From a virus (taxonomy: Duplodnaviria; Caudoviricetes): 33,934 nucleotides of DNA. Shown piece after piece: positions 10,268-32,101 of this stretch. Every line of letters begins with the position of its first letter. Position 1 is the first letter of the stretch. The stretch lies in the IMG/VR virus record IMGVR_UViG_3300032296_000132, positions 1 to 33,934 of that record. One strand, 5' to 3'. Both the position numbers and the translations under genes were made by a program. The notes below the pieces were generated by a model. It was not told where the DNA came from. It worked only from the letters and a program-made list of their open reading frames with translations, and did no database searches.

Positions 10268-10510
10268 ATGGCAAATCCTGAAATTGAAACAGCGCGGGAA
10301 CTAGCTACCCATGCAAATGACATAGATCATTTGCAGAAGGATATGGACAAGCTCGTCCAAGATATGGAAGAAATAAAGAAGGCCATACAAAGTATTCAGA
10401 CAACTCTGTCTGAGGCTAAAGGCGGCTGGCGTTTATTGGCTGCTGCCGCAGGTGCGGGCGGTGTATTGACTATAATTGCTGAAAGCGTAATTAAACTTTG
10501 GAGTAAATAA
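10268..10510 (+). CDS. Small coiled-coil protein with C-terminal hydrophobic helix
   Basis: Heptad region followed by GWRLLAAAAGAGGVLTIIAESVI; the non-overlapping ATG 10268 is preferred over 10253. Confidence 0.7.
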   Translation: MANPEIETARELATHANDIDHLQKDMDKLVQDMEEIKKAIQSIQTTLSEAKGGWRLLAAAAGAGGVLTIIAESVIKLWSK

Positions 10511-11226
10511 TGGCTACCAAAAAAGTCAAAAAATTTGGTCGCGGCGGTGACATCCTTACTGGTGTTGGCGCAGCTTTAGTTGGCAAAGCTCTATACGACA
10601 AGTACATTGGTAAGGGCGACAGCAAAGACGACGACTATACCAGCCGGGTAAAAGAATTCGGGCGTAAAGGCCGGTTTCCTGAAGAAAAGACGAAAGAGAA
10701 AGCTGACACTAAAAAAGCTGATGACAAGGTAGCTGAAGACAAAGTCGAAGCTAAAGAGCTTTCTAAGCGGGGTAAGTTTCCATACGAGACAGAAGACGGC
10801 ACAAGCGGCGCTAGTCCTAGTGAGTATAAATCTGCTGCCCCTGTTCCTGCCCCTGCTCCTGTGATAAAGAAAGATAAAAAAGTCGCAGCCTCAACTACTA
10901 CGTCAGCGGGAAAATCCACAACAGGTCAAGGTAGCAGCACTACTACGGGAGTTGACGCAGGTATTGCGGCTGGGCAAAAACAGAATCTTTTAAACCAAAT
11001 CCGTAATCAGACGTATGAAGGGCAAAGAAGAAGCACAAGTGGAAGAGGGGCTGGGCGGTCACGATACCCAGCTTCGACCGAAACACCTGAACCACCTAAA
11101 AAGGGGGCTGGTCGGTCACGGTATACTACAACTACTTCAGAAACTAGGATGAAAAAAGGTGGTGCAGTGAAGTCAGCTTCATCCCGTGCTGACGGTATTG
11201 CTATTCGCGGAAAGACGAGGGCTTAA
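10510..11226 (+). CDS. Basic low-complexity protein with C-terminal RADGIA tag
   Basis: 238 aa; ends MKKGGAVKSASSRADGIAIRGKTRA. Confidence 0.85.
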   Translation: MATKKVKKFGRGGDILTGVGAALVGKALYDKYIGKGDSKDDDYTSRVKEFGRKGRFPEEKTKEKADTKKADDKVAEDKVEAKELSKRGKFPYETEDGTSGASPSEYKSAAPVPAPAPVIKKDKKVAASTTTSAGKSTTGQGSSTTTGVDAGIAAGQKQNLLNQIRNQTYEGQRRSTSGRGAGRSRYPASTETPEPPKKGAGRSRYTTTTSETRMKKGGAVKSASSRADGIAIRGKTRA

Positions 11227-11228
11227 TT

Positions 11229-12014
11229 ATGTCTTACAAATCTAAAGACAAGATCCACTACGATTCCGCCACTGGCGCAACCTTCAAGGAAGCATTCGCT
11301 GATGCTCGTAAAGAAGGCCAGAAAACTTTTGAGTGGAACGGCAAAAAGTACGGTACCAAGCTAAAAGGCGAAGACGAGCCAAAGCAGGGTAAGGTTAGAG
11401 AAGACCCTACGATTGAAGCTGGCACACGTCAGAAGTCCGTACCCAAGGAAGAGAAGAAAGAAGACAAGCGGTCTCGCGGCACTGCCGCTAGTCTTGCTGG
11501 CGCTGGTCTAGGTCTTGGCGCGATGGCTGTTCTAAGCGGCCTACGCGGTGCAGAGCGCGCCCGCGCGGAACGTGAACTGAATAAAGGTAAGGAATACAAG
11601 GCATCCCCCCGCATAAAAGATTTAGGACCCGGTGAAGCTACTTGGGAAGGTGAAGGCGGGCGGTATTACAAAAAAGGCGGCAAAGTTAAGAAGTTTGCTG
11701 GCGGTGGTATGTACGAGAATATTCCGGCTAGGGGTAATCAGAAACCTTCTGGCTCTGTCAGGTCGACCGCTACAAAATTACCCGATAGGACCAAGGTAGA
11801 CCCAGACGCACCTTCGCAAACTGTGCTTGAGTCGCTCCAAAACGAGCGCAAGAATCAGGAACAGGACATCCGTAATCGCAAAGAGCGTGAAGCGTATGAC
11901 AAAGGCGAAAAGACTCGTCTGAAAGACCAAGGCGGTCTCAAGAAGGGTGGTATGGCTTCATCTCGCGGTGATGGTATTGCTATGCGCGGCAAGACGAAAG
12001 GCAGGATGATCTAA
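11229..12014 (+). CDS. Basic protein with C-terminal RADGIA-type tag
   Basis: 261 aa; N-terminal FKEAFADAR...FEWNGKKY module; ends LKKGGMASSRGDGIAMRGKTKGRMI. Confidence 0.85.
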   Translation: MSYKSKDKIHYDSATGATFKEAFADARKEGQKTFEWNGKKYGTKLKGEDEPKQGKVREDPTIEAGTRQKSVPKEEKKEDKRSRGTAASLAGAGLGLGAMAVLSGLRGAERARAERELNKGKEYKASPRIKDLGPGEATWEGEGGRYYKKGGKVKKFAGGGMYENIPARGNQKPSGSVRSTATKLPDRTKVDPDAPSQTVLESLQNERKNQEQDIRNRKEREAYDKGEKTRLKDQGGLKKGGMASSRGDGIAMRGKTKGRMI

Positions 12015-12412
12015 TGCCAGCTAAATCTGCCAAGCAGGAAAGGTTCATGCAAGCTGTGGCGAACAACCCAAAGTTTGCAAAGAAAGTCGGCGTCCCTGTA
12101 ACTGTGGGACAAGAGTTCACTAAATCAGGAGGCGGTATGGCTGAGTCAAAGAAGATGGTTAAGAAGGAAGTCGACTTCATGAAAAAGAAGGGTGCTCCTA
12201 AGTCGATGGTCAAGCACGAGATGGCTGAGGCTGGCATGAAGAAGGGCGGTATGGCTAAATACGCTAAAGGTGGCATGGTTGCTCCATCCAAGATGGGTGC
12301 TGTCAAAACCGCTGCTCCTAGCCGTGATGGCGTTGCTGTCAAAGGCAAAACCAAAGGCATGATGCCGAAGATGGCTGGTGCTAAAGGTATGAAAAAAGGC
12401 GGCTACTGCTAA
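12014..12412 (+). CDS. K/M/G-rich small basic protein with degenerate tag
   Basis: 132 aa; MKKGG twice, YAKGG, and SRDGVAVKGKTKG. Confidence 0.85.
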   Translation: MPAKSAKQERFMQAVANNPKFAKKVGVPVTVGQEFTKSGGGMAESKKMVKKEVDFMKKKGAPKSMVKHEMAEAGMKKGGMAKYAKGGMVAPSKMGAVKTAAPSRDGVAVKGKTKGMMPKMAGAKGMKKGGYC

Positions 12413-12424
12413 TAGGAGGCAGGC

Positions 12425-12895
12425 ATGAGAAACGAAGACCTTTTAGCACTTGCTGCTTTGGCTGGAGGTGTGGCTGCTTTTAAAAATAAAGCAGACAAGG
12501 ACTATGCTGAATTGCCTGAGCAAAAAGAAGTAGCTGCAAGGCGTCGGACGAAGTACGACAAGATGGCTGAAGACCTTGGCTATCCGGTAAGTAAAAACAA
12601 AATGTCTGCCCGGCATGGTGGTCGTGACCCGCTCGCTGTGAGTGTGGACACAGTTTCTGAAAAAGAAAAAGAAGCGGCTTCGGCAAGACGGAAAGCCGCA
12701 AGCGAAGAGTTGAACCTTAAAAACACAGGTCGCCGTAAAACCCCTATGGTGGATAGTAGCGGCAACCCTATAACTACGCGTTATGGCGGTTACGCTCATA
12801 CTGAAGGTATGAAAAAAGGCGGTAAGGTGTCTTCTGCTTCCAGCCGCGCTGATGGTATTGCGCAAAAAGGTAAGACGAAAGGTAGGATGATCTGA
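12425..12895 (+). CDS. Basic protein with C-terminal RADGIA tag
   Basis: 156 aa; SD AGGAGG; ends MKKGGKVSSASSRADGIAQKGKTKGRMI. Confidence 0.85.
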   Translation: MRNEDLLALAALAGGVAAFKNKADKDYAELPEQKEVAARRRTKYDKMAEDLGYPVSKNKMSARHGGRDPLAVSVDTVSEKEKEAASARRKAASEELNLKNTGRRKTPMVDSSGNPITTRYGGYAHTEGMKKGGKVSSASSRADGIAQKGKTKGRMI

Positions 12896-13170
12896 TGATG
12901 GCCTCGCGTGGTATGGGTGCAATCAACCCTTCCAAGATGCCCGGCGGGAAAAAGAAAGCCCGTCGTGATGACACCGACTTTACGCAGTACGCTGAAGGCG
13001 GCAAGGTCAATGCTGCTGGTAATTACACCAAGCCCGGACTACGTAAGAAGATTGTGTCGCAGGTAAAGTCCGCAGCAACTCATGGCACGGGTGCTGGTCA
13101 GTGGTCAGCCCGTAAAGCGCAGTTGGTAGCCAAGAAGTACAAAGCAGCAGGAGGAGGATATCGTGACTGA
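12895..13170 (+). CDS. Small basic phage protein
   Basis: 91 aa; TGATG overlap; YAEGG followed by NYTKPGLR...GQWSARKAQ...YKAAGGGY. Confidence 0.8.
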   Translation: MMASRGMGAINPSKMPGGKKKARRDDTDFTQYAEGGKVNAAGNYTKPGLRKKIVSQVKSAATHGTGAGQWSARKAQLVAKKYKAAGGGYRD

Positions 13171-13426
13171 AGAAAATAAAACCCCCTCAAAATCAGAGTA
13201 CGAAACCGCGCGCGAAAGACTTGAAACTGCGCGTAAAGAACGCGAAGCTGAACAAGCGAAAAGCCCAAAGCAAAAACGGGACGAAGCTTTGCTTAAATTT
13301 GGTTTCTCTATGATGGGGCAACCTAAAAAAGAAGATAAGAAAGCTAAAGGCGGCAAGGTTAAGTCAGCCTCATCCCGTGCAGATGGCATAGCCCAGCGTG
13401 GTAAGACGCGAGGTATGATGAAGTGA
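13163..13426 (+). CDS. Small protein with C-terminal RADGIA tag
   Basis: 87 aa; GTG start with SD GGAGGA; ends KAKGGKVKSASSRADGIAQRGKTRGMMK. Confidence 0.85.
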   Translation: MTEENKTPSKSEYETARERLETARKEREAEQAKSPKQKRDEALLKFGFSMMGQPKKEDKKAKGGKVKSASSRADGIAQRGKTRGMMK

Positions 13427-13656
13427 AAGCCCCACAGCAATCGCTAAAAAACTGGGGAGACCAGAAATGGCGGACTAAGTCCGGTAAACCCTCCAGTAAA
13501 ACCGGTGAGCGGTATCTGCCGGAGAAGGCGATTAAGGCGTTGAGTCCTGCTGAGTATGCCGCTACAACGAAGGCAAAGCGGGCAGGGAAGAAAGCAGGAA
13601 AGCAGTTCGTAGCGCAGCCTAAAGGCATTGCAAAGAAGACAGCGGGGTTTAGATAA
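13423..13656 (+). CDS. Small basic phage protein (resembles DUF5872)
   Basis: 77 aa; QQSLKNWGDQKWRT...ERYLPEKAIKALS; GTGA overlap; family assignment from memory. Confidence 0.75.
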   Translation: MKAPQQSLKNWGDQKWRTKSGKPSSKTGERYLPEKAIKALSPAEYAATTKAKRAGKKAGKQFVAQPKGIAKKTAGFR

Positions 13657-14096
13657 TGGCTGATAAAAATTTTTTAGGGTTGGATTGGGAAAACATACCC
13701 ACACCAAAGAAAAATGTTAAGAAGGCTGATCCGGGAGAGCCGGGCAGTGAAAAATTTAAGAGAGTGTCTGCCGCTTTACGGCAAGAAACGCAAGAAGCCA
13801 AAGAGTGGGCAAAAAGGCATGATGAAGCAAGAAAAGCCACCAATGCAAGAATAAATTTTCTTGGTATTGACGACATGCTCAAAGCCGATGAACAAAAGCG
13901 CCAAGAACGTCTTGGTCGTGGTGGCGGTGGCGGTGGCGGTGGCGGTGGGGGCCGTGGCGGTGGCGGTGGCGGTGGCGGCGGCAGTTTGCTACGCCAAATG
14001 AACCCGCAAGCGCTAATATACAAAAAAGGCGGCAAAGTGCGCACAGCCTCGCAACGTGCAGATGGGATTGCAATGCGTGGGAAAACGAGGGCTTAA
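13656..14096 (+). CDS. Protein with poly-Gly tract and C-terminal RADGIA tag
   Basis: 146 aa; ends YKKGGKVRTASQRADGIAMRGKTRA. Confidence 0.85.
   Translation: MADKNFLGLDWENIPTPKKNVKKADPGEPGSEKFKRVSAALRQETQEAKEWAKRHDEARKATNARINFLGIDDMLKADEQKRQERLGRGGGGGGGGGGGRGGGGGGGGGSLLRQMNPQALIYKKGGKVRTASQRADGIAMRGKTRA
13914..13982 (+). repeat. In-frame (GGTGGC)n hexamer repeat encoding poly-Gly
   Basis: Seen directly; encodes G-R-G11-R-G10. Confidence 0.9.
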
Positions 14097-14837
14097 ATGG
14101 CATTCACTACCTCAGTATCGACGTTTAACCCAGACCTCAACGAGATATTCGAAGAGGCGTTTGAGCGTTGTGGGCAAGAGATGCGTACGGGTTATGACTT
14201 CCGTACGGCGCGACGCAGCCTGAATTTCCTGCTGGGGGAGTGGGCTAACCGTGGCGTGAACTTGTGGACTATTGAGCAAGGCTCGATTAACTTAGCGCAG
14301 GGGGTAACTACCTATGATCTACCTAATGATACCGTTGATCTTCTGGAACATGTTATTCGCACTGATTCCGGACAGGGTCCTAACCAGACTGATTTGAACA
14401 TCACCCGTATTTCGGTCTCAACTTACTCGACTATTCCGAACAAGTTGGCACAAGGTCGTCCTATTCAAGTGTGGATTAATCGGCAAAGTGGACAGACAAC
14501 AAATTTAATTGGCGCGACTTCGGCTAACCCACAGATTAATGTGTGGCCCGCGCCGGATCAGGGCACTACTTTGAACCCCTATTACGTGTTTTACTATTGG
14601 CGCATGAAGCGTATTTATGACGCGGGCAATGGTATAAACGTGCCAGATATTCCGTTTCGATTCCAGAACTGCTTAGTGGCGGGGCTGGCTTTTATGTTAT
14701 CGATTAAGTTGCCGAATGCCGATCCGGTTAGGTCACAAGCGTTGAAGGCAATGTACGATGAAGCATGGGATTTAGCTGCTGGTGAAGACCGCGAGAAGGC
14801 GGCTGACCGGCTTGTTCCACGTGAAATGTTTTTCTAA
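14097..14837 (+). CDS. Probable head-tail adaptor / tail tubular protein A-like
   Basis: 246 aa; ARRSLN...EWANRG, Y.LP.D, INVWPAPD and C-terminal helical hairpin typical of podophage adaptors. Confidence 0.65.
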   Translation: MAFTTSVSTFNPDLNEIFEEAFERCGQEMRTGYDFRTARRSLNFLLGEWANRGVNLWTIEQGSINLAQGVTTYDLPNDTVDLLEHVIRTDSGQGPNQTDLNITRISVSTYSTIPNKLAQGRPIQVWINRQSGQTTNLIGATSANPQINVWPAPDQGTTLNPYYVFYYWRMKRIYDAGNGINVPDIPFRFQNCLVAGLAFMLSIKLPNADPVRSQALKAMYDEAWDLAAGEDREKAADRLVPREMFF

Positions 14838-15250
14838 TGGGCAACAGATTTTCTAGTGCGAAAAACTCGATTGCGGAATGTGACCGCTGCGGGTTTCGCT
14901 ACAAGTTAAAAGAACTAAAGAAGCTGACGATCAAGACTAAGCAGGTATCGATTAAAGTTTGTAAAACTTGTTGGGAACCGGATCAGCCGCAATTGCAATT
15001 AGGAATGTATCCAGTGCAGGACCCACAAGCAGTACGGGAACCGCGCCCTGATAACAGCTATGTACAAGCCGGTTATACGGGGCTACAGTTGACGTTAAAT
15101 ACAGATTTTGGTGATCCGTCGGGTGGTAGTCGGGTGTTTCAGTGGGGTTGGGCACCGATAGGTGGTGCAAGGGCTGACGATACTGGGCTGACTCCAAATG
15201 ATCTAATTGGCGTTGGTCAAGTAGGCAGTTTAACGGTGGTAATTACGTAG
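14837..15250 (+). CDS. Zinc-ribbon-containing phage protein
   Basis: CDRC...CKTC; TAATG overlap with the upstream gene. Confidence 0.75.
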   Translation: MGNRFSSAKNSIAECDRCGFRYKLKELKKLTIKTKQVSIKVCKTCWEPDQPQLQLGMYPVQDPQAVREPRPDNSYVQAGYTGLQLTLNTDFGDPSGGSRVFQWGWAPIGGARADDTGLTPNDLIGVGQVGSLTVVIT

Positions 15251-15258
15251 GAGCAATT

Positions 15259-15420
15259 ATGGACAGCATGAAGAAAGTAGCCAAGGCGGAAGTCAAGGCG
15301 CATGAGAAGCGGATGCACAAGGGTATGGCTAAAGGCGGCGTGACTGGCATGGCGATGAAAAAAATGGGCCGTAACATGGCTCGTGCCATGAATCAGCGCA
15401 GCGGTGGTCGGGGACGATAA
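15259..15420 (+). CDS. Small K/M-rich basic protein (53 aa, missing from the ORF track)
   Basis: Hand translation MDSMKKVAKAEVKAHEKRMHKGMAKGGVTGMAMKKMGRNMARAMNQRSGGRGR; SD AGGAG; TAATG overlap with the next gene. Confidence 0.85.
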   Translation: MDSMKKVAKAEVKAHEKRMHKGMAKGGVTGMAMKKMGRNMARAMNQRSGGRGR

Positions 15421-15677
15421 TGGCTAAATACTCACAAAAGCAGGGCGGCAAAGAAGTAGGCCAAGCTGCTACTTATGCGGAGCCACATACTATGGATGGC
15501 AAAAAGATTAAGGGCGACCTGCCCTACGAAGCGGGCGCTAAAGTTATGACCGAGATGAATCCTTCTGTTGCTGGTATTTCCAAGGGTAATTACAAAGAAC
15601 CAAAGACAACTGGTATCAAAATTCGTGGTACTGGCGCGGCAACTAAAGGTACGATGGCTCGTGGTCCAATGGGTTAA
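15420..15677 (+). CDS. Small basic phage protein
   Basis: 85 aa; C-terminal GIKIRGTGAATKGTMARGPMG. Confidence 0.8.
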   Translation: MAKYSQKQGGKEVGQAATYAEPHTMDGKKIKGDLPYEAGAKVMTEMNPSVAGISKGNYKEPKTTGIKIRGTGAATKGTMARGPMG

Positions 15678-15679
15678 TT

Positions 15680-16408
15680 ATGAATTACACGGAACTGTTC
15701 AATACTATTAAGTCTTACTGCGAAAACGATTTCGCAGCGTCGTCCTTTACGGCGTCGAATGGCGGCGCTGTTGTGGTGCCTAGTAATGAGCAGGTCAATA
15801 CGTTCATCAGACAAGCAGAGCAGCGTATTTATAACTCTGGCAATCCGCCTATCCTGAAGCACAATGTTTACGGCGACTTGAGTCAGGGTAATAAATATTT
15901 GAACTTGCCGCCAGATTTTCTGGCGGTGTATTCGTTGGCAGTGCTGACTGACACGGCAGCGGGGGAAGATAGTCCGCAGGAGTTCTTGCTCAACAAAGAT
16001 GTTAGCTTTATTCGGCAGTCATACCCTGATCCGACTTACGAGGATGTGCCGCTGTATTACGCGTTGTTTGGCCCTAACACAGGGCCTAATGTACCACTGC
16101 CAAATACAAATTACACAATGATTGTTGCGCCTACACCTGACGAAAACTATCGGGTTGAACTGCATTACTTCCGTTACCCAGAGTCGATTGTTACTGCTGG
16201 TACGTCATGGCTTGGCAATAATTTCGACACAGTATTGTTGTACGGCGCGTTGATGGAAGCCATCATGTTCATGAAGGGTGAACAAGATTTGGTCATGTTC
16301 TACAAATCGCGGTATGACGAAGCGTTAATGTTGTACAAGCAATTGACTGACGGCAAAGAACGTCAAGACTCGTACCGTTCTGGACAACCACGGGTGCCAA
16401 CGGCGTAA
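15680..16408 (+). CDS. Probable second adaptor/tail-associated protein
   Basis: 242 aa; FIRQAEQRI, YLNLPPDFL, VAPTPD, LLYGALMEA pattern of adaptor proteins. Confidence 0.65.
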   Translation: MNYTELFNTIKSYCENDFAASSFTASNGGAVVVPSNEQVNTFIRQAEQRIYNSGNPPILKHNVYGDLSQGNKYLNLPPDFLAVYSLAVLTDTAAGEDSPQEFLLNKDVSFIRQSYPDPTYEDVPLYYALFGPNTGPNVPLPNTNYTMIVAPTPDENYRVELHYFRYPESIVTAGTSWLGNNFDTVLLYGALMEAIMFMKGEQDLVMFYKSRYDEALMLYKQLTDGKERQDSYRSGQPRVPTA

Positions 16409-16426
16409 TTTAATTAGGAGTTCTAA

Positions 16427-16858
16427 ATGGCAATTACACAATCACTCTGCACAAGCTTTAAGGTTGACCTCCTTAGCGGCACTATGGATTTCACGGCGGG
16501 CACCGGCGACACGTTTAAAATGGCGCTCTACACCTCGTCCGCTACGCTTGGCCCAACCACCACAGTTTACAGTGCAACTAACGAAATTAGTGGTACCGGG
16601 TACACGGCTGGAGGTAATACGCTGACCGTATCGCAGTCGCCGACATCAGGCGGCACTACTGCATTTATTTCGTTTAACAATACTACATGGACTTCGGCAT
16701 CATTTACTTGCCGTGGCGCGTTGATATACAACAGCAGCCAGTCCAATAAAGCGGTGGCTGTCTTCGACTTTGGTTCAGATAAAACTGTTGTAGCTGGTAC
16801 GTTTACCGTTTCGTTCCCAGTTGCGGATGCAACTAACGCTGTTATCCGTATCGCTTAA
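16427..16858 (+). CDS. Virion structural protein (fibre/tail associated)
   Basis: 143 aa; FKMALYTS...NEISGTGYTAGG; SD AGGAG. Confidence 0.65.
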   Translation: MAITQSLCTSFKVDLLSGTMDFTAGTGDTFKMALYTSSATLGPTTTVYSATNEISGTGYTAGGNTLTVSQSPTSGGTTAFISFNNTTWTSASFTCRGALIYNSSQSNKAVAVFDFGSDKTVVAGTFTVSFPVADATNAVIRIA

Positions 16859-16870
16859 TAGGGGGCAATC

Positions 16871-18581: not shown

Positions 18582-19262
18582 ATGGCTATTATTCAATCTG
18601 GTGCAAATAGCACTGTTCTTCAAACTGTTGATCCAACTTTTTTGGCGGCTCGTATATCTGAGCGCCCACCAGAAATTCTTGGTGCATATCAAATGACCTT
18701 GACTTCTGGTTCATTGACCACTGTGGCTGCTGGCGCTACGGTGTTCTCTTTCCGTTGGGCACCTGCTACAACTACTCAGCTTTGCATGGTTCGTCGTGTT
18801 GAAGTTGGTTTCTCAACTATCACGGCATTTGGTACCGCGCAGTCTTTACAGTATTCGTTGCAGATTGCTCGTCAGTGGACAGCTAATGACACAGTCGGTA
18901 CTACGGCGCTGTTTACTCAAACTAACACCGGCAAGTTCCGTACCACTATGCCTACTTCGGCATTTGCTGGTGGTGGTCAGATTTTTATCGCAACTACCGG
19001 CGCAATCACTGCTGGTACTCGTACGCTTGATACCCAAGCTATTGCGACTGTACAAGGTCAGTCAACTGCGATTGGTACTGTATTGACCGCTGCCCCAATC
19101 TACCAACACCAGCCGGGCGACTACCCAATTATTTTTGCTGCTAACGAGGGCTTCATCCTTAACAACGTGCAGCTTATGGGTGCTACTGGTGTGATTAACT
19201 TGACTGTTAACGTCGAGTGGATGGAACTTGCAGCAACTACTGGTAACGCAATCGCTTACTAA
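18582..19262 (+). CDS. Probable virion structural protein
   Basis: 226 aa, T/A-rich beta-type protein; SD AGGAG. Confidence 0.65.
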   Translation: MAIIQSGANSTVLQTVDPTFLAARISERPPEILGAYQMTLTSGSLTTVAAGATVFSFRWAPATTTQLCMVRRVEVGFSTITAFGTAQSLQYSLQIARQWTANDTVGTTALFTQTNTGKFRTTMPTSAFAGGGQIFIATTGAITAGTRTLDTQAIATVQGQSTAIGTVLTAAPIYQHQPGDYPIIFAANEGFILNNVQLMGATGVINLTVNVEWMELAATTGNAIAY

Positions 19263-23685: not shown

Positions 23686-24102
23686 ATGTCGATGTCAATA
23701 AGCGGGGATACTGGACTTACGTTCCCTGATGCCTCAACTCAAACCGCATCCCCCGCTAGTCTGGGGTTTCAGACTGCGGCAGAAGTTACTACTACTGCCA
23801 CTACTGTCGTTAATAATTTGTCTTTAGGTATAGGGCAGACTTGGCAAAATGTTGCTGGCAGCAGGGCATCAAATGGTACGGTTTACACTAATAATACTGG
23901 TAAACCAATCATGGTGGCATTTTCATCCGGCGGCGGTGGGTCTCTTAATGTGACCTATACAGTGGGGGGCGTAACAATAGGTCTTGCTTATTTATCTGCT
24001 GGTAACGCTATGTATTTTCCTTTTTCTTTTATCGTGCCTGATGGGGCTACTTATAGTATTTATAGTGATAGAGGGACTACTACTTGGGCGGAACTTCGTT
24101 AA
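23686..24102 (+). CDS. Small tail-fibre tip protein
   Basis: ATG 23686 with SD AAGGAG; GQTWQNV..SR...YTN.TGKPI...FIVP.GATY...WAELR fibre C-terminal domain. Confidence 0.75.
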   Translation: MSMSISGDTGLTFPDASTQTASPASLGFQTAAEVTTTATTVVNNLSLGIGQTWQNVAGSRASNGTVYTNNTGKPIMVAFSSGGGGSLNVTYTVGGVTIGLAYLSAGNAMYFPFSFIVPDGATYSIYSDRGTTTWAELR

Positions 24103-24111: not shown

Positions 24112-24333
24112 ATGAAACTATCTTATGAAGCTAAAGTTTTGCCAGACGGTTCCATCGAATCTGCCCACACAGTTGAACAGGTTTGCGTCCATTGCCAAGA
24201 CCCTGTGAGCGAAAAAGAAGCCGCGTCTGGCGTGTGCACTAAATGCAATATGCCTTGGGAGGCCACACAAAGCGTAACGGTAAGTATAACTTCCATGCCA
24301 GCAATTCAGGGCCTGACTATTAACATAGGTTAA
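24112..24333 (+). CDS. Small zinc-ribbon protein
   Basis: CVHC...CTKC; SD AAGGA. Confidence 0.75.
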   Translation: MKLSYEAKVLPDGSIESAHTVEQVCVHCQDPVSEKEAASGVCTKCNMPWEATQSVTVSITSMPAIQGLTINIG

Positions 24334-24335
24334 TC

Positions 24336-26429
24336 ATGCCTCTACAGAGACTGCAATTTCGCCCCGGTGTAAACCGCGAGAGCACGACACTTGCTAACGA
24401 AGGGGGTTGGTACGCTTGCGATAAAGTGCGGTTTCGTTCTGGCTATCCTGAAAAGATTGGCGGTTGGACAGCGTTTTCCAACGACACTTTTTTAGGCGTC
24501 TGCCGTTCACTCTGGAATTGGGTGACTCTTAAAAGTTTTAATCTTGTTGGACTTGGCACACACCTGAAGTTCTATATAGAGAACGGCGGCGCGTATTACG
24601 ACATCACCCCCATCCGGTACACTTCTACGGTTGCTTCAAACGCTTTTACCACAGGGGTATCCACTCTAAACGGCGGCATTAACGCAACCCAGACTTCAAT
24701 AACATTAACGAACGCCTCAAATTTTTCTACCGCAGGGGGCGTTATTTATATCGGGTCTGAGCAGATTTTTTACGGCGCAATTACTAGTAACACATTAACG
24801 AATTGCGTTCGAGGTTATAACGGTACAACTGCCGCAGCGCATTTAACTGGGGCTACGGTTGCTTCTTCCACAATCATAGTTACTGATCCGGGGCATGGCG
24901 GTCAGACGGATGACTTCGTCACCATTTCCAATGTTGTAGGGTTTGTGAACGGTATTCCCGTGTCGTACATCAATGGTAACTGGCAGATGACTGTCATTGA
25001 CTCTACGTTTTGGACGTTTACTATAGCAACTCCTGCAATTACTGATGGGGTAGCTATAAACGGTGCAACTTTTACCTACGAAATTGGGACTGGTAAGGCT
25101 GTATATACCGCTGGTACTGGCTGGGGCGCTGGCCCTTGGAGTCGTTTGGGTTGGGGCGATGGTTTTACGACCGGTGTGGGGCAGCAGCTTCGCCTGTGGA
25201 GCCAAATTAACTACGGACAGGATTTATTGTTTTCTTACCGTGGTGGGCCTATTTATCATTGGGCACCGGGTCCCGGCACTCAGCCAGATTTTGGCACTAG
25301 GGGTGATCTCGTCACAGGCTCAGAATGCCCTACTCAGGTGCTACAGCTTTTGATCTCAGACGCTACGCGGATTGTGATTGCGTTTGGTTGCGACCCATAT
25401 TCATTTGAACCCGACCCCGGCGTTCTTGATCCACTGCTTATTCGCTGGTCTGTCTCTGAAGACTATACCGACTGGAACCCTGCAATTACGAATCAGGCTG
25501 GTAGCTACCGGCTTTCTCACGGCTCATTGATTATTGGCGCATTGCAAACGCGTCAAGAAAATTTGATTTGGACAGACACCGCTATGTACTCCATGCAGTA
25601 CGCTGGCCCACCGTTCGTTTGGAACTTTAATATTCTTGCCGACAATCTGTCTATTTGTAGCCCGAACGCCATGACTACAGTCAACGGTGTAGTTTATTGG
25701 ATGGGTACTGACAAGTTCTATATGTACGCTGGTCGAGTAGAAACTTTGCCGTCTACCGTTCGTCAGTATGTGTTTAGCGACATTAACCGTGATCAGTTCT
25801 ATCAAGTGGTTGCCGGTACAAATGAGGGCTACAACGAGGTGTGGTGGCAGTACTGCTCAGCTAATTCAACAATCAACGATAGATACGTCATCTACAACCA
25901 CCTTGACCGTGTGTGGTACTACGGCACGTTAAATCGTACGGCTTGGCTGGATAGCCCGCTGCGTGGCTTCCCTATGGCTGCTGACCCAAATGTTAATCGC
26001 CTTGTGTTCCACGAGTTTGGGGTCAATGACAACTCCACAAATACCCCTCAACCTATTAATGCTTATATCCAGTCTTCCGACTTTGACATTGGTGATGGAC
26101 ACAATTATGGGTTTGTGTGGCGCATAGTGCCAGATATTACTTTTGACGGGTCTAATGTTGTTCAGGGCGCTACAACCCCACGGGTGGATTTTACAGTTCT
26201 TCCACGTAGAAACCCCGGGTCGGCCTATGGCCCAGCGGATAACCCGCCGGTTATAACTGAAAACAACTATGCGGTGGCAAACACTTATGAGGTTCAGCAA
26301 TTTACCCAGATTGTGTACACCCGCGTTCGTGGCAGACAGATGGCTTTCAAGGTCGAGTCCAATACGCTTGGCACTCAGTGGCAGCTAGGTACACCCAGTA
26401 TGGATGTACGTCCGGACGGCAGGAGATAA
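24336..26429 (+). CDS. Probable tail nozzle / tail tubular protein B (P22 gp10-like)
   Basis: 697 aa with beta-propeller-like content (LIRWS, VYWMG, EVWW.Y, YVIYN), upstream of the ejection genes. Confidence 0.7.
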   Translation: MPLQRLQFRPGVNRESTTLANEGGWYACDKVRFRSGYPEKIGGWTAFSNDTFLGVCRSLWNWVTLKSFNLVGLGTHLKFYIENGGAYYDITPIRYTSTVASNAFTTGVSTLNGGINATQTSITLTNASNFSTAGGVIYIGSEQIFYGAITSNTLTNCVRGYNGTTAAAHLTGATVASSTIIVTDPGHGGQTDDFVTISNVVGFVNGIPVSYINGNWQMTVIDSTFWTFTIATPAITDGVAINGATFTYEIGTGKAVYTAGTGWGAGPWSRLGWGDGFTTGVGQQLRLWSQINYGQDLLFSYRGGPIYHWAPGPGTQPDFGTRGDLVTGSECPTQVLQLLISDATRIVIAFGCDPYSFEPDPGVLDPLLIRWSVSEDYTDWNPAITNQAGSYRLSHGSLIIGALQTRQENLIWTDTAMYSMQYAGPPFVWNFNILADNLSICSPNAMTTVNGVVYWMGTDKFYMYAGRVETLPSTVRQYVFSDINRDQFYQVVAGTNEGYNEVWWQYCSANSTINDRYVIYNHLDRVWYYGTLNRTAWLDSPLRGFPMAADPNVNRLVFHEFGVNDNSTNTPQPINAYIQSSDFDIGDGHNYGFVWRIVPDITFDGSNVVQGATTPRVDFTVLPRRNPGSAYGPADNPPVITENNYAVANTYEVQQFTQIVYTRVRGRQMAFKVESNTLGTQWQLGTPSMDVRPDGRR

Positions 26430-26430
26430 T

Positions 26431-26742
26431 ATGTCAACTGGAACAACAAGAGCGCCAGCGTTGCCCTACGCGCCCGTCGAGTACGACCGGCTATATATGG
26501 ATCAGCTACTGAACATTCTCAGGCTTTACTTTCAGCAGCTAGACAACCCCGGCCCTAGCGCAGCGTCCACGCAGGTCATAAACTTGAACCAGATTGTATC
26601 TGCCATGAACTTTAGCGTAATAAATCAGGCGACTGGGCAGAGGGTTGCGAGCTTGCCTACCGAGGCAGACTTAGCCAATATGCGGGTGGGCGACTTGTAC
26701 CGTGACACAACAGCAGATAACGTAATAAAGATAAAGGTATGA
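26431..26742 (+). CDS. Small tail-associated protein
   Basis: ATG 26431 with SD AGGAG; PALPYAPVEYD...LRLYFQQLD. Confidence 0.7.
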   Translation: MSTGTTRAPALPYAPVEYDRLYMDQLLNILRLYFQQLDNPGPSAASTQVINLNQIVSAMNFSVINQATGQRVASLPTEADLANMRVGDLYRDTTADNVIKIKV

Positions 26743-27116
26743 CCGAACGAAACGCTGCTATCAAGTTAGTGTACAAGTCTGTCAAAGGACGCGCCCCGTT
26801 TGCGTTAGAAGAGTTCGTGCAGATGTTAAGGCTATGGGAAGTAGTACCTCTTTATGAAAACGGGCGGATTATTGGTGGTGTGTTAGCAAAAGATAACGAA
26901 TTACACGTTGGGTATGGAGAAAAGCCAAGAGCCTCGATCCGGCCCTACATCAAGGAAATATTGGGTGGGGTCATAGATAAGTATGGTTTTGCAATGACCA
27001 CAGTACAGGCAGACAATCCGGCGGGTTTACGCTTTTGCGAACGGCTAGGATTTGTCAAATTGGGCGAAGAAAACGGTACAATCCGACTAAGATGTGATAG
27101 GAGTAATTTCTCATGA
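26739..27116 (+). CDS. GNAT-fold acyltransferase-like protein
   Basis: TTVQADNPAGLRFCERLGF matches the GNAT C-terminal motif (N..A..FY.RLGF); sits at the position of T7 gp13, before the ejection genes. Confidence 0.65.
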   Translation: MTERNAAIKLVYKSVKGRAPFALEEFVQMLRLWEVVPLYENGRIIGGVLAKDNELHVGYGEKPRASIRPYIKEILGGVIDKYGFAMTTVQADNPAGLRFCERLGFVKLGEENGTIRLRCDRSNFS

Positions 27117-29308
27117 TTATCCGCAATAAATTTAACGGCTACGGGTTTGACGGGGTACGGCTCTATCACGATCCTGTCTCTCTTTCTATTGCTGCTACTC
27201 AAGCCGGTGTCGCTTCTTCCGCTGCCGCTGCCGCCCTTGCTGCTAAAACCGCTGCCGCAACTACCGCTGCTACAACTGCTGCTACGGCTGCTGCTGGTAA
27301 AACCGCCGCCTTAGAACTAGCGAAGAAAGAAGCAATTACGGCGGGCATGAAGCAAGCTGGAACAGAAGCCACTAAGCAAGGCATCGCTCAAGCTGGTCAA
27401 CAGGTTGGTGTAGAAGCCGCTAAGCAAACCGGCGTAGAAGCCGCAAAACAGGGTATTTTCTCAGCTAATCCTGCTGGTATGCCACCGACTGCTGGTGCGC
27501 CGATCACCCCCACTGCTCCTGCTACACCACTGCCACCGGCTGGTGGTACGCCCTTTACGCCACCTACTACTGCGGCTAAACCTATAGACCCATATTCGGA
27601 ACAATATTTAAGGCAGACTTACCCAGAGCAGTATGCGCAACATGCGGGTAAGACTATAGAGCCGGGCACTGCGGCGCAAAAGTTAGGGGAAAAAGCAGCA
27701 GAAACAGCGGCTGACCCATATAAAAATGCCGGGTTTTCAAAAGACTATTTGGGTGGCGAGACGTTCAATCCGGGCTTTAAAGGTCTAGACGCCACAAGCG
27801 TTACTAATTCGCCTTCACTTACCGCTCCTCCTGCTAACCAAGGCATAAATATGACGCCAGATTTAGCTTCTAAATTTGGCGCACCCCCAGAACCAAGCGC
27901 GTTAAAAAGAGGCGTTATGGAGGGGTTAGAGATTGTTAAAAAATACCCTATGGAAACCGGCATGGGGCTGATGGCGGCTGGGCAGTACATGAACAAGCCC
28001 GAAAAAGAGGATGAAGACAAGTACAAGAACACGGTGGATATGTCTGGGTTCCAGCCATCAGTGCCTACGCAGCGCCCCTTTACCCGCTCGTATGAGTACC
28101 AAAGCTATCAGGGTGGTGGCCCGGTTGAAGATATGTCTCGTATGAATAGCATCGGGGCCAATACTGGCTTTCCTATGGCACGACTGCAAACCCCAGCATA
28201 TGCTGTCAGTTCAGCTACACCGATGCCTGTAAACACCCTGACCCCCTCGGCTGACGCTTCCGTTAATGCCTACACTGGTGAGCCACGTTTTGCAGAAGGT
28301 GGTCTTTCTGCGGCGCAGCGTCGTGAGTATGGTTTGCAGACCCGTGGGCAAAGGGCGGCTAGAAGCCTGACAAAATCTTACGAAGAGATGGAAGAAGAAC
28401 GCCAGAAAGAGGCGATGAAGTTGTTTGGCGAACGCTCAGACCCCGGTATTGTGCCGCGTAGCCGCACCCAGATGATGAGTAGCCCCTTTTCCGCTGCTCA
28501 AGCTGAACATGCGCGTCTTGGTAAAAAAGCTAAAGTACCCGTTGTAGAGATGCCTAAGACTAATCTAGGTGACATCGACAACTATATGGACATCCCTATT
28601 GAGGCTGCGGGTGGTGGCATCATGCATGGCGCAGAAAAATTTTCAAATGGTGGCCCCGCGTTTATGCGGGCTTCAGGAACGCCATCAAAAGCTGAAAGCG
28701 TTTCTAGCGGGGGTCCTGCGTTTATGCGGGCTTCAGGAGCGCCATCAAGAGCCGAAATCGTTTCTAGCGGAGGTCCTGCGTTTATGGGGCCGGTTGGATC
28801 GGGGGTATATGGCTCGGGTTCTGATTCAGCTCCTGATTTTGGCGGTGCCCCATATAGTATTCCTGCACAGCAAGCCCGTTATACACCACAGCCCGAATAC
28901 GCACCTGTTCCTTACCAAAATAATTTACCGCCCCAGCAACAGCCTGACATGAGTGATTTTTATGCAAACATGGATCAGCAACTTGCTAGTTATGGGTATG
29001 CAGCAGGTGGGGGCATCATGCACGGTCTTGGTGGTTATTCCGATGGTGGGCGTTTATTGAGAGGACCCGGCGATGGAGTTTCTGATTCTATCCCTGCTGT
29101 TATTGGTAAACGCCAGCCTGCTCGTCTTGCTGATGGCGAGTTTGTAGTCCCAGCGCGTATTGTCTCTGAATTGGGTAACGGCTCGACTGAGGCAGGTGCC
29201 CGTAAGTTATACGCAATGATGGAACGTGTTCAGGCATCGCGTAAGAAAAGCATAGGCAAGAAAAAGGTTGCTGTTAATTCTAAATCTGACAAACATCTAC
29301 CCGCATGA
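27113..29308 (+). CDS. Candidate internal virion/ejection protein 1
   Basis: 731 aa; Ala-rich N-terminus, low-complexity middle, C-terminal GPGDGVSDSIPA...LADGEFVVPA domain. Confidence 0.7.
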   Translation: MIIRNKFNGYGFDGVRLYHDPVSLSIAATQAGVASSAAAAALAAKTAAATTAATTAATAAAGKTAALELAKKEAITAGMKQAGTEATKQGIAQAGQQVGVEAAKQTGVEAAKQGIFSANPAGMPPTAGAPITPTAPATPLPPAGGTPFTPPTTAAKPIDPYSEQYLRQTYPEQYAQHAGKTIEPGTAAQKLGEKAAETAADPYKNAGFSKDYLGGETFNPGFKGLDATSVTNSPSLTAPPANQGINMTPDLASKFGAPPEPSALKRGVMEGLEIVKKYPMETGMGLMAAGQYMNKPEKEDEDKYKNTVDMSGFQPSVPTQRPFTRSYEYQSYQGGGPVEDMSRMNSIGANTGFPMARLQTPAYAVSSATPMPVNTLTPSADASVNAYTGEPRFAEGGLSAAQRREYGLQTRGQRAARSLTKSYEEMEEERQKEAMKLFGERSDPGIVPRSRTQMMSSPFSAAQAEHARLGKKAKVPVVEMPKTNLGDIDNYMDIPIEAAGGGIMHGAEKFSNGGPAFMRASGTPSKAESVSSGGPAFMRASGAPSRAEIVSSGGPAFMGPVGSGVYGSGSDSAPDFGGAPYSIPAQQARYTPQPEYAPVPYQNNLPPQQQPDMSDFYANMDQQLASYGYAAGGGIMHGLGGYSDGGRLLRGPGDGVSDSIPAVIGKRQPARLADGEFVVPARIVSELGNGSTEAGARKLYAMMERVQASRKKSIGKKKVAVNSKSDKHLPA
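28641..28786 (+). repeat. 60-bp tandem repeat (about 2.4 copies), in frame
   Basis: Encodes SxGGPAFMRASGxPSxAExV; identity is visible between successive 60-nt lines. Confidence 0.9.
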
Positions 29309-29751
29309 ACAATTACGGGAAACTAGAATGGTTTGGTGGTAACAACGATGCGCTACAGGTGTACCGTATGCTGGTTGATCTCGCGCACCTATGGGATGAC
29401 TTGGTTGATAAAGACAAAGACGTAACTGAGTTAGATATAAATAATTCTTTTCTTATATGCCTTGTCTACCTGCCGCTGAATCCTTTTTATCAACAGATAC
29501 AGCGCGATGTGTTGCCGATGTGGATAACCGTAGTGTCTTCGTACCAAACTGCAAACAAGTTTGAACGCGAGAAAGATGAACGTGGGTTAGAGGCGGCACA
29601 TATGCTCAGATACGCCGCTGGAAATATCTTAGCTTATGCGATACATGTATGTGTCGGTCCGGAAAAAGCCGCTGAATACGTGCCGGAAATGTGGAAAGAT
29701 ATTGTTAACGAACGCTTTGCGGAGTACCGCGAGGAGCACTTGAATGCTTAA
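29305..29751 (+). CDS. Small helical DDxxD protein, isoprenoid synthase/prenyltransferase-like
   Basis: LAHLWDDLVDKD resembles the first Asp-rich motif of class I isoprenoid synthases; overlaps both neighbours. The CDS is well supported, the function is tentative. Confidence 0.5.
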   Translation: MNNYGKLEWFGGNNDALQVYRMLVDLAHLWDDLVDKDKDVTELDINNSFLICLVYLPLNPFYQQIQRDVLPMWITVVSSYQTANKFEREKDERGLEAAHMLRYAAGNILAYAIHVCVGPEKAAEYVPEMWKDIVNERFAEYREEHLNA

Positions 29752-32101
29752 TCTATTAAAATTTATTTTCCCTGACTTCACATTCTACTTCGGCGGTGGC
29801 GGTGGTGGTCCAACTACGACCAAGTCTGAGACTTCAAACATCCCAGATTATGCCCGTCCGTACGTTGAGCGGATGATGGGTTCGACCGAAAAACAAGTCT
29901 ATCAGTATGGTCCTAGTGGCAATATAACTGGCTTCCAACCATACAAACCATTCCAAGGCGAAACAGTTGCTGGCTTTAGCCCAATGCAAGCCCGAGCCAT
30001 GCAAGGTATTGGCGGCTATCAACTGCCCGGTCAAACTGGATTAGCTACTCGCATGACTGGCATGGGAAGTATGGCCTCTATGGGGGCAGGTCAGCGGTAC
30101 GAACAACAGGCAACTAACCCTTACGCCACACAAGCATATATGTCTCCATATATGGAGAACGCACTGCAACCACAGATGCGTGAGGCTGCACGTCAGTCTG
30201 CCATACAGAAACAAACTAATTTGGCTGAAGCTTCTAAGCAAGGTGCGTTCGGTGGGTCTCGTTCTGCACTTATAGAAGCTGAGCGCCAGCGTAATCTAGG
30301 CCAGCAGCAAGCCGACATCTACGGCAAGGGGATGCAGACGGCGTTTGAGCAAGCCCGTCAAGCCCAGCAGTTTGGTGCCGAACTTGGTCTCAAAGGTTAT
30401 GGTCAGGGTATAGAAGGCGCTAAATTAATGGGCGCGTTGGGTCAGCAACAGTACGGTCAGGAAACGGGGCTTCTGGGTCAGCAGATGGAAGTCGGCGGTA
30501 AACAGCAAGCTTACGAGCAAGCTCGTCTAAACCAGAGAATCCAAGACTACGCGACTGAGCAACAGTATCCGTTCATTCAACTGGGTACGCTTTCCAACAT
30601 GCTGCGCGGCTTACCGATGCAAGCGTCTACTACTCAGTTGTATCAGGCGCAGCCGCCGCTCATGCAGCAAGCTGTTGGTCTGGCTGGTGCGGGCGCAAAC
30701 TTGTATCAGGCATTTGGTAATAAACAAGCTAAAGAAGGCGGCGCTATTAAGGAGATGGCAAGTGGTGGTATCGCCACAGGCGCTGACCCATACAAGTTAC
30801 CGGGCATGATGAAGAAACTCTCAGACGCCCAGCTAAAAGGAAAGCTGGGCGGTGACACCGATCCCGAGACTATGGGAATTGCCCAAGCTGAAAAGCAGCG
30901 TCGTGATCAAGTACGCGCTGGCGCACCCAAGATGATGGCAGGTGGCGGTGCTGTGGCGTTCGCTAAAGGCGGGATAGATACTGTTAATAGAGAAGATACT
31001 GAGTGGGCTGAAGGTAAGCCAAAAGAAGACAAGAAGGCTGGGTTTAAAACAGTTAAGAAAGAAGCTAAAGCCCCTGCGCCTACGGCTTCTGCTACGCCTT
31101 ACCAAGATGAATACCGCGCGGCTATGACGGAGTTTGCCCCACCACCAGAATTAGAAAAAACACGTGCAAATATCAAGGCTCTTGAAGATCGTGTTGCCGG
31201 TGGTGTTGAGGGTGAACTAGACCGCCAACAAGTCGCTTATAAAAAACTGGGTATTGATCCAGTTAAGATGTTTGAAGAAGAGCGCGCGCGTCGCCAAGAA
31301 GAAATGAGGATGAGCAAGGAAGATGCTAGAAAGTCTGAGCATCTACGTTGGGCGCAAATGTTCGCTAAGTTTGGTTCCACCCCCGGCCCCGTGCTTAGAG
31401 CCGCGCTTTTGTCGATTAACGACACCGTGCCCGATCTTCTTGACGACCAAGCCAAGGTGAGCGCTATTCAGCGTGAAGCTAATAAAGCCTTAGATGATCT
31501 AAACAGGGCAGAGTACCAAGAGAAAAGGGGTAGGGTTGACGAGGCGCTTAAATCACATAATGCTGCGGCAGAAAAAGCGGCTACCCTTAGCGCCAATTTA
31601 GGCGAAGTGTTGTACAAGGGCCAAATCGAAAAAATTAGATCGAAGGCTGGTTTGGCAGAAAAAGAAGTGGAAGGTAAAACACGGATTGACGCCGAAAAAA
31701 TACAAGCTGGCGCTAGAATGGCTGAAGCTGGTATGCGCGTTAAAGCTGAAGACCGACGTGATGCAAGAGAGCAAAGAAAGCGGGAAGATACTCAAACTAG
31801 AGCCGCTCGTGCCGAATACAACGACTTTAAGAGTAATAAAGATCGGGTAGCGGAAACACAAAAACTTAATAGAGACTTAACCTACGCTAAGCCGGGGACT
31901 CCTACAAGAGAAGCTGCGGAAAAACGTCTGGCTGAGATGAAAGCAGAAGAACGGCAGTTTATAAGAGGCTTGCCTAAATCTTATCCAGATGCAAGGATCG
32001 ATGAGCTTATACAAGAGCAGGCTCCTGCTAACGCTACGACATCGGGGGATATAAAATTTACTAATCCTAAAGCTGCCGATTACTATAATCAATATAAATA
32101 A
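29744..32101 (+). CDS. Candidate internal virion/ejection protein 2
   Basis: 785 aa; SD GAGGAG; leader then G6-PTTT, Q/G/A-rich helical region, GAFGGSR motif, charged coiled-coil C-terminus. Confidence 0.75.
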   Translation: MLNLLKFIFPDFTFYFGGGGGGPTTTKSETSNIPDYARPYVERMMGSTEKQVYQYGPSGNITGFQPYKPFQGETVAGFSPMQARAMQGIGGYQLPGQTGLATRMTGMGSMASMGAGQRYEQQATNPYATQAYMSPYMENALQPQMREAARQSAIQKQTNLAEASKQGAFGGSRSALIEAERQRNLGQQQADIYGKGMQTAFEQARQAQQFGAELGLKGYGQGIEGAKLMGALGQQQYGQETGLLGQQMEVGGKQQAYEQARLNQRIQDYATEQQYPFIQLGTLSNMLRGLPMQASTTQLYQAQPPLMQQAVGLAGAGANLYQAFGNKQAKEGGAIKEMASGGIATGADPYKLPGMMKKLSDAQLKGKLGGDTDPETMGIAQAEKQRRDQVRAGAPKMMAGGGAVAFAKGGIDTVNREDTEWAEGKPKEDKKAGFKTVKKEAKAPAPTASATPYQDEYRAAMTEFAPPPELEKTRANIKALEDRVAGGVEGELDRQQVAYKKLGIDPVKMFEEERARRQEEMRMSKEDARKSEHLRWAQMFAKFGSTPGPVLRAALLSINDTVPDLLDDQAKVSAIQREANKALDDLNRAEYQEKRGRVDEALKSHNAAAEKAATLSANLGEVLYKGQIEKIRSKAGLAEKEVEGKTRIDAEKIQAGARMAEAGMRVKAEDRRDAREQRKREDTQTRAARAEYNDFKSNKDRVAETQKLNRDLTYAKPGTPTREAAEKRLAEMKAEERQFIRGLPKSYPDARIDELIQEQAPANATTSGDIKFTNPKAADYYNQYK

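What the first reader, a model, noticed from the sequence alone, without database searches (positions are those of the whole stretch)
10510..30973. Recurrent [MFY]-[AKS]-x-G-G motif linking the basic cluster and the ejection proteins: candidate double-glycine processing code
Seen: in the basic cluster MKKGG occurs four times and YKKGG twice, plus FAGGG, YAKGG, YAEGG, MAKGG and variants FGRGG, LKKGG, KAKGG. In ejection protein 1: YQGGG (28106), FAEGG (28289), AAGGG (28604), FSNGG (28640), YAAGG (28997), YSDGG (29036). In ejection protein 2: AKEGG (30728), MASGG (30755), MAGGG (30935), FAKGG (30959). I did not find the strict form in terminase, portal, scaffold or capsid; there is one stray FAGGG in 18582-19262. 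The motifs fall at composition boundaries and directly precede each RADGIA tag. Known: adenovirus protease cleaves (M/I/L)xGG-X and ASFV pS273R cleaves after GG in core polyproteins. Inference: these proteins are polyproteins cut at the motif during maturation, or the motif is a multivalent docking peptide for head loading. No canonical prohead protease is visible in the window.
Basis: partly seen in the sequence, partly recalled or inferred. Interest (0 to 1): 0.85.

Follow-up and report, generated by a model that had tools for sequence, protein, structure and literature searches.

The report
AxGG cut-and-anchor signal in phage cargo
A short peptide (a bulky residue, then Ala/Lys-x-Gly-Gly) marks the joints of this phage's small basic proteins and probable injected proteins; it is likely a cut-and-anchor signal cut just before the Ala/Lys, where phage T5 cuts a look-alike peptide in its tail ruler protein, but no cut has been shown here.

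Summary
The motif is real: 10 vs 1.2 expected in the basic cluster, 7 vs 0.8 in ejection proteins 1-2, 2 vs 1.7 elsewhere. The window is an HTVC023P-type podophage virion module. The motif sits at module joints, and it opens a conserved ~70-residue domain ending ejection protein 1 that is homologous to the distal module of siphophage tape measures, including lambda gpH. Free motifs are enriched only in relatives carrying that domain. T5 pb2 is cut at R|AEGG (mass spectrometry). The ordered crAss001 cargo domain starts at A425-FGG. Stand-alone DUF6321 ends exactly where fused copies continue with [AK][DE]GG (12 of 13). Best reading: an X|[AK]xGG cut frees N-terminal cargo while the AxGG side stays anchored (0.5); rival, an uncut docking tag (0.3). 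No protease was found, models were low-confidence, and the T5 and crAss modules are not statistically linked to this domain. The scan noted this motif before on other DNA (five findings). Prediction: lambda gpH, whose site is unknown, is cut at F733|A734.

The parts
10011..10265 (+). Stand-alone DUF6321 basic module, no motif here; relatives fuse it to the tag through C|[AK][DE]GG
   Evidence: Pfam PF19846 6.5e-20
10510..11226 (+). Basic protein, 238 aa: variant FGRGG 10534, MKKGG 11149-11163, C-terminal RADGIA tag
11229..12014 (+). Basic protein, 261 aa: YKKGG 11667, FAGGG 11694, LKKGG 11937, C-terminal tag
12014..12412 (+). Basic protein, 132 aa: N-terminal phrog_16759 module, MKKGG 12236, YAKGG 12260, tag, MKKGG 12389 two residues from the end
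12425..12895 (+). Basic protein, 156 aa: variable body, MKKGG 12809-12823, tag; most relatives match only the last ~29 residues
12895..13170 (+). Basic protein, 91 aa: YAEGG 12988 directly before a phrog_17747 module
13163..13426 (+). Basic protein, 87 aa: KAKGG 13340, tag; the same KAKGGKV word lies near the end of crAss001 gp45
13656..14096 (+). Basic protein, 146 aa: poly-Gly run, YKKGG 14019, tag
15259..15420 (+). Basic mini-protein, 53 aa: MAKGG 15325
27113..29308 (+). Ejection-type protein 1 (role inferred from position), 731 aa, with motifs at 28106, 28289, 28604, 28640, 28997, 29036
29036..29308 (+). Conserved C-terminal domain opened by YSDGG (GPG, SD, GE words); homologue of the distal tape-measure module; candidate reader/anchor of the motif
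29744..32101 (+). Ejection protein 2, 785 aa: natural fusion of two genes that are separate in relatives; motifs 30728 and 30755 lie in the joint, 30935 and 30959 close the next module
   Evidence: phrog_4287 1.3e-6
18963..18977 (+). Stray FAGGG in a tail-region gene, at chance level; not counted as part of the system
23920..23934 (+).

Best explanation
The motif marks the joints between modules of the basic proteins and ejection proteins 1-2, and it is likely a maturation site cut as X|[AK]-x-G-G, so that the AxGG side would stay anchored in the particle while the variable N-terminal cargo is freed. Shown: enrichment, position at joints, gene ends that match the X|[AK] register, and a conserved domain opened by the motif at the end of ejection protein 1, homologous to the distal module of tape measures (lambda, JBD30, Douge). 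From papers: T5 pb2 is cut at R|AEGG; in T5-like DT57C the C-terminal piece stays in the tail tip after ejection; the crAss001 gp45 domain starting at AFGG is bound to the portal. Inferred: these proteins enter the prohead; the prime-side modules (RADGIA tag, ejection-1 domain) are anchors; the ejection-1 domain recognises the motif. The cutter is unidentified: that domain itself through its invariant Glu and near-invariant Asp (about 1 in 4), a host protease it directs, or a gene outside the window.
For: Enrichment. 163 of 163 distinct tagged proteins from 80 loci have a GG within 30 residues upstream; M/Y/F/L at -5 in 145, K/A at -4 in 153 (loci were chosen by likeness to this region). Joints: 20 of 20 fused ejection-2 proteins have the motif in the linker, and the second module starts at residue 4-5 of its own gene in 4 of 4 split cases. 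Register: 47 DUF6321 proteins stop at W-x-C, and 12 of 13 extended ones continue directly with [AK][DE]GG (a random 20-residue window holds the pattern 23% of the time). T5 cut after R1127 by proteomics and intact mass (PMC10038345) falls at R|AEGG. crAss001 gp45 ordered domain 425-552 (PMC10172136) begins at A425-FGG. Domain: 9306 cluster representatives at E<=0.001; its profile hits only three PDB sequences at E<=10, all tape measures (Douge 3e-30, JBD30 7e-12, lambda gpH 0.017); PHROG bridges link it to lambda. A cut at lambda F733|A734 gives 79.8 + 12.5 kDa against the published ~78 and ~14 kDa. Co-occurrence: domain in 6 of 9 relatives; motif enriched in 4 of these 6 (0-6 of 300 shuffles), borderline in 1, and in 0 of 3 without the domain.
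Against: No cut is shown in any HTVC023P-type phage. No peptidase was found in 46 window genes or in 31 HTVC023P genes scanned. The T5 and crAss modules are not statistically linked to this domain (hhalign E 0.12 and 0.36; HMM searches negative): they share only AxGG, a later GE and position. The residue before the cut is R in T5 but mostly M/F/Y here, and about half of the basic-cluster sites have K where T5 has A. 46 of 755 motifs lie within 4 residues of the C-terminus and some pairs are 8-9 residues apart, so cuts would free tiny peptides. A425 is only the first ordered residue, and the crAss001 authors read gp45 as continuous. Caulobacter phage RW has the domain but no excess of motifs (2 vs 2.0). 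Nine genomes are few and related; the fused ejection-2 forms may come from one event. The lambda masses are gel estimates, and the ~14 kDa figure fits cuts nearer residues 710-720 better.
Confidence: 0.5

Rival explanations
1. Uncut multivalent docking tag: the 7-residue word binds the ejection-1 domain (or portal/scaffold) and gathers cargo into the prohead; nothing is cut in this phage, and the T5 cut is a separate matter.
For: Motifs at the extreme C-terminus (46 of 755 within 4 residues, 5 ending at GG) and closely spaced pairs suit avidity better than cutting. No protease found. Co-occurrence with the domain fits a reader as well as a cutter. The crAss001 domain is portal-bound with AFGG ordered.
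Against: Does not explain why the mapped T5 cut, the first ordered crAss residue and natural gene ends all fall on the same bond. In 12 of 13 DUF6321 fusions the unit begins at [AK] without the bulky residue.
Confidence: 0.3
2. Adenovirus/ASFV-type processing: a cysteine protease cuts after the two glycines.
For: Invariant GG with a bulky residue upstream resembles those sites (recalled, not tested). A cut after lambda FATGG gives 80.1 + 12.2 kDa, equally compatible with gel sizes.
Against: T5 is cut four residues earlier; G427-G428-W429 lie inside the modelled crAss range; 5 of 755 motifs end the protein at GG; no such protease family matched.
Confidence: 0.06
3. Structural joint only: a short turn or linker left by duplication and shuffling of one ancestral piece, with no reader and no cut.
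For: The basic genes are tandem paralogues sharing a tail; Gly pairs are common in linkers.
Against: A narrow 7-residue pattern is kept in unrelated proteins and in phages whose capsid proteins are 63-72% identical to the window's, and is absent where the domain is absent (0 of 3).
Confidence: 0.1

Closest known systems
T5 tape measure pb2 maturation to pb2* + pb2C (PMC10038345, passages read)
   Same: Cut at X|A-x-G-G (R1127|AEGG); a GE word follows; in the related DT57C the C-terminal piece stays in the tail tip after ejection (PMC10713586, passages).
   Different: One site in a siphophage tail protein, not many sites in head cargo; R before the cut; its module is not statistically linked to the window's domain. 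The passages read do not describe a motif.
Lambda gpH distal region and gpH* / gpHC processing (PMC12617516, passages read)
   Same: FATGG 733-737 and YATGG 778-782 bracket a homologue of the ejection-1 domain. gpH is cut near there; the paper states that site and mechanism are unknown.
   Different: Lambda has E/H where the window has the SD word; no free motifs were sought in other lambda proteins; tail rather than head.
crAss001 cargo protein C1 gp45, Pfam PF25725 (PMC10172136, passages read)
   Same: One protein punctuated by about eight x[AKD]xGG words with small basic modules between them; the ordered portal-bound domain starts at AFGG; the tail-bound piece 214-245 lies between two motifs.
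   Different: PF25725 does not match the window; only a 0.85 language-model lead and E 0.36. The authors propose no cutting.
T4 internal proteins with capsid-targeting sequence cut by gp21; phiKZ head protease sites (recalled, not checked)
   Same: A short shared tag loads variable cargo into the head and is cut off.
   Different: N-terminal tag, cut after Glu, by a dedicated prohead protease; here the tag is C-terminal or internal and no such protease was found.
Adenovirus protease and ASFV pS273R double-glycine sites (recalled, not checked)
   Same: GG with an upstream bulky residue in core proteins.
   Different: They cut after GG; the evidence here puts the boundary before [AK]xGG, and no such protease family matched.

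Membership tests
HTVC023P-type podophages | Capsid protein and virion gene order like HTVC023P | tested here: met
   Capsid 64% identical to HTVC023P, 72% to MinM2; terminase-portal-GroES-scaffold-capsid order shared
Distal tape-measure module (lambda/JBD30/Douge type) | Significant profile match | tested here: met
   Profile A3: Douge 3e-30, JBD30 7e-12, lambda 0.017; shared PHROG positions; lambda-type prophage member at 2e-5
Distal tape-measure module (lambda/JBD30/Douge type) | Opened by an AxGG word | tested here: met
   63 of 82 domain hits in 80 genome loci have the strict motif within 60 residues upstream; window YSDGG at 29036
Distal tape-measure module (lambda/JBD30/Douge type) | Second motif after the module, then a baseplate-binding helix | tested here: not met
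   The window's domain ends the protein with a basic tail and no second motif
T5 pb2C-type cut module | Sequence homology to the pb2C start | tested here: inconclusive
   No HMM hit either way; hhalign E 0.12 with a 9-row T5-type alignment
T5 pb2C-type cut module | Cut at X|AxGG in the virion | not testable with these tools
   No virion proteomics at hand; gene-end register agrees
crAss_CARG1 (PF25725) | Pfam match over cut-off | tested here: not met
   0 of 1 own record, 0 of 5 prophage-bearing genomes over cut-off
crAss_CARG1 (PF25725) | Same fold, portal-bound | tested here: inconclusive
   Models pLDDT 68 and 65 with the N-terminal part at 39-53; no PDB fold match
Adenovirus/ASFV double-glycine processing | Cognate cysteine protease gene | tested here: not met
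   No peptidase family in 46 window genes; record 54% complete
Adenovirus/ASFV double-glycine processing | Cut after GG | tested here: inconclusive
   Not measurable here; all indirect evidence points to another bond
T4-type capsid-targeting sequence | N-terminal tag and gp21-type protease | tested here: not met
   5 of 755 motifs start a gene; no protease family

The most novel reading that the evidence does not exclude
One ancient anchor-and-release module, an AxGG word read by a ~50-70-residue Asp/Glu domain, works across tailed phages: it cuts lambda gpH at F733|A734 and T5 pb2 at R1127|A1128, splits crAss001 gp45 on either side of the portal, and in HTVC023P-type podophages acts in trans on dozens of free tags to load and release head cargo. 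The small domain would be an unrecognised self-activating peptidase.
Probability: 0.2. Interest if true: 0.92.

Novelty: new variant of a known kind. Interest (0 to 1): 0.68.

Why it matters
How and where lambda gpH is cut is stated to be unknown in a 2025 structure paper; this gives an exact, cheap prediction (F733|A734). It offers one explanation for the T5 cut site and for the two crAss001 gp45 pieces found about 420 A apart across the portal. It also suggests how HTVC023P-type phages, described as among the most abundant pelagiphages (abstract in listing), load a swappable set of basic proteins with no recognisable prohead protease. A portable tag of about 30 residues for loading phage heads would be a useful laboratory tool. 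No paper describing the motif turned up in searches of an open-access library; subscription papers are not covered.

Tried and rejected
Complex prediction of the ejection-1 domain (without its own motif) with a tag peptide: no verdict, score 0.00, controls not folded; it says nothing for or against. Two AlphaFold2 models of the domain were confident only in the helices; PDB Foldseek and the wide VIA search found nothing, and the viral library returned only the family itself. Direct links to PF25725 failed (0 of 401 genomes over cut-off). A T5-type profile did not hit any window or GPG-SD-type protein among 5813 targets. The idea that genes start at M-AxGG as a ready-made N-terminus: only 5 of 755 motifs, mostly unrelated genes. 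A tblastn of the tag against cultured phages found no match; relatives were found through the capsid and the domain instead. For the module b13423 only 2 of 10 N-terminal extensions held the motif, most being false upstream starts. The JBD30 authors' guess of a cut at 1066 rests on an Arg-C prediction; the register here would put it at F1019|A1020. The crAss001 supplement 1 (pictures) and Extended Data figures could not be read; the gp45 peptide map there could show peptides spanning predicted cuts. The four peptides named in the text (79-101, 181-190, 275-300, 307-320) span none.
Full report
Context. The window is the virion module of an HTVC023P-type podophage: terminase, portal, GroES, capsid, adaptors, lysis genes, tail genes and three ejection-type genes. 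The capsid protein is 64% identical to HTVC023P and 72% to MinM2. The record is about 54% complete. 'Ejection protein' rests on a PHROG match for protein 2 (1.3e-6) and a DarB-like match for protein 3; for protein 1 it is inferred from position.

Observation. Every motif listed is present at the stated place, and there is one more stray at 23920. With all glycines fixed, the strict motif occurs 10 times in ten basic proteins (mean 1.19, 0 of 5000 shuffles), 7 times in ejection proteins 1-2 (0.84, 0 of 5000), never in protein 3, and twice in the other 33 (1.67). Because the pattern came from these sequences, I also anchored on GG alone in 510 basic genes of related loci. The information peaks at -3 (M/Y/F), -2 (K/A), -1 (K/E) and two residues after GG (V): a 7-residue footprint. 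In 120 homologues of ejection protein 1 there are 354 motifs against a mean of 44.9 in 50 shuffles (these are close kin).

Anatomy of the basic cluster. Most relatives of the 156-residue protein match only its last ~29 residues. Of 163 distinct tagged proteins from 80 loci, all have a GG within 30 residues upstream of the RADGIA-type tag; the body before it ranges up to 381 residues. The layout is variable body + motif + conserved C-terminal tag.

Motif at joints. Ejection protein 2 is a fusion: among distinct proteins from 47 loci and six cultured phages, 20 were fused and all 20 have the motif in the linker; 4 were split, with the second module starting at residue 4-5 of its own gene; 14 had no hit for the second module (the six long ones have the motif right after the first module); 3 ran off the contig; 5 cultured phages gave no hit for the first module. 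The fused forms may descend from one event. For small modules, the motif lies at 12 of 13 C-terminal extensions of DUF6321, 48 of 51 N-terminal joints of the phrog_17747 module, 50 of 78 joints after the phrog_16759 module, and 2 of 10 for the phrog_14910 module; a random window holds it 23% of the time.

The domain. The last ~90 residues of ejection protein 1, opened by YSDGG, are 88-100% identical in the 120 listed of 8000 scored hits, and 9306 cluster representatives match them. A genome scan brought in prophage tape measures in which the same domain lies near the C-terminus, often with a second motif after it; 63 of 82 hits have the strict motif just upstream. In 73 aligned copies G, G, S, D, L, E and V are invariant; only the Glu of the acidic pair survives in lambda. 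The profile hits three PDB sequences, all tape measures: Douge (two copies), JBD30 and lambda gpH; PHROG families bridge the window, a prophage copy and lambda at the same model positions. Among nine of the 22 records (near-identical ones left out), the domain is in six. Motif counts observed/expected: HTVC027P 12/3.4, DSL-LC04 14/4.7, psg01 12/5.1, HTVC023P 9/4.1, MinM2 6/2.8 (20 of 300 shuffles), Caulobacter RW 2/2.0; without the domain CRP-901 2/3.5, QDWS535 1/1.6, MW202785 0/1.2. CRP-901 has small basic proteins but no motifs in them.

Register. Three lines put the boundary before [AK]xGG, not after GG. (a) T5 pb2 is cut after R1127 by proteomics and intact mass (PMC10038345, passages); the sequence there is R|AEGG, followed by a GE word. 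This lead came from earlier finding e1-6309010 and I checked it. (b) The portal-bound domain of crAss001 gp45, residues 425-552 (PMC10172136, passages), starts at the Ala of AFGG, and gp45 carries about eight such words between small basic modules. (c) 47 DUF6321 proteins stop at W-x-C, and 12 of 13 longer ones go on directly with [AK][DE]GG, so a cut there would restore the stand-alone end. For lambda, whose site and cutter are stated to be unknown (PMC12617516, passages), F733|A734 gives 79.8 and 12.5 kDa against ~78 and ~14 kDa. Gel sizes cannot separate the two registers.

Mechanism. In T5-like phages the C-terminal piece stays in the tail tip after ejection (PMC10713586, passages), and in crAss001 the AFGG domain is held on the portal while an upstream piece sits in the tail. 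I therefore read the motif as a release site whose downstream side is an anchor. For this phage: basic proteins and ejection proteins would be gathered into the prohead by their AxGG-led tails, cut at X|[AK]xGG, and the bodies freed to pack with DNA or be injected. Every step of this sentence is inferred. The ejection-1 domain is the best candidate reader because it begins with the motif and travels with it; whether it cuts is open. A reference title seen speaks of host involvement in cutting the T5 tail protein (paper not read).

Against. No cut is shown here. No peptidase family matched 46 window genes or 31 HTVC023P genes. The T5 and crAss modules could not be tied to the window's domain by statistics. 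The residues around the bond differ (R|A in T5; M/F/Y|K or A here). 46 of 755 motifs sit within 4 residues of a C-terminus, which suits a docking tag. One domain-bearing phage has no free motifs. Both structure models were weak and matched no solved fold.

Literature and prior notes. Searches found no paper describing the motif; searches served to find the structures. I read passages only of PMC11445458, PMC12617516, PMC11972413, bioRxiv 2026.02.24.707460, PMC10172136 (plus a term search of supplement 2), PMC13033339, PMC10038345 and PMC10713586. Adenovirus, ASFV, T4 and P22 facts are recalled. The scan has noted this motif on other DNA; those notes are leads, not support.

Verdict. A real, conserved code at module joints; probably cut before [AK]xGG (0.5), otherwise an uncut docking tag (0.3). 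It works like known tag-and-cut cargo loading but is not a member of the T4 or adenovirus systems. New variant of a known kind; interest 0.68, mainly for the exact prediction on lambda gpH.

Noticed in passing
window 29305-29751: 148-residue gene between ejection genes 1 and 2 with a WDDLVDKD word like the aspartate motif of prenyl-transferring enzymes (motif recalled); phrog_21390, unknown function.
   Followed up: no
window 26739-27116, 27113-27180, 29744-29800: Small gene that looks like a GNAT acetyltransferase before ejection protein 1 (by eye; no Pfam hit); ejection proteins 1 and 2 start with short leader-like peptides, the second followed by a Gly run, recalling P22 gp7 (recalled).
   Followed up: no
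window 28640-28800: Three near-tandem GGPAFM repeats in ejection protein 1, a stretch almost absent from 118 homologues (4-5% identity): a recent insertion between two motif copies.
   Followed up: partly
window 15420-15677: Basic mini-protein with a different C-terminal tag (RGTGAATKG word) and no strict motif; similar words end HTVC023P basic proteins after a motif.
   Followed up: no
window 13911-13980: Run of about 20 glycines in a basic protein, also present in the closest relative L001.
   Followed up: no
window 5142-5549: Phage-encoded GroES-like co-chaperonin between portal and scaffold, shared by all relatives whose head module was seen.
   Followed up: no
L402, L403, L412, L418, L423: Split forms of ejection protein 2 often end in a motif plus another short tag (GLAELAL- or GLQALAL-like), a third kind of tail after the motif.
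   Followed up: partly
records OQ594354, OL906435, PP438419: Three phages with different stated cyanobacterial hosts have the same length (65,014) and identical match scores; host labels may be unreliable.
   Followed up: no
L194, L226, L235, L238, L244: The domain also occurs near the N-terminus or twice in long prophage proteins of Betaproteobacteria, not only at C-termini.
   Followed up: no
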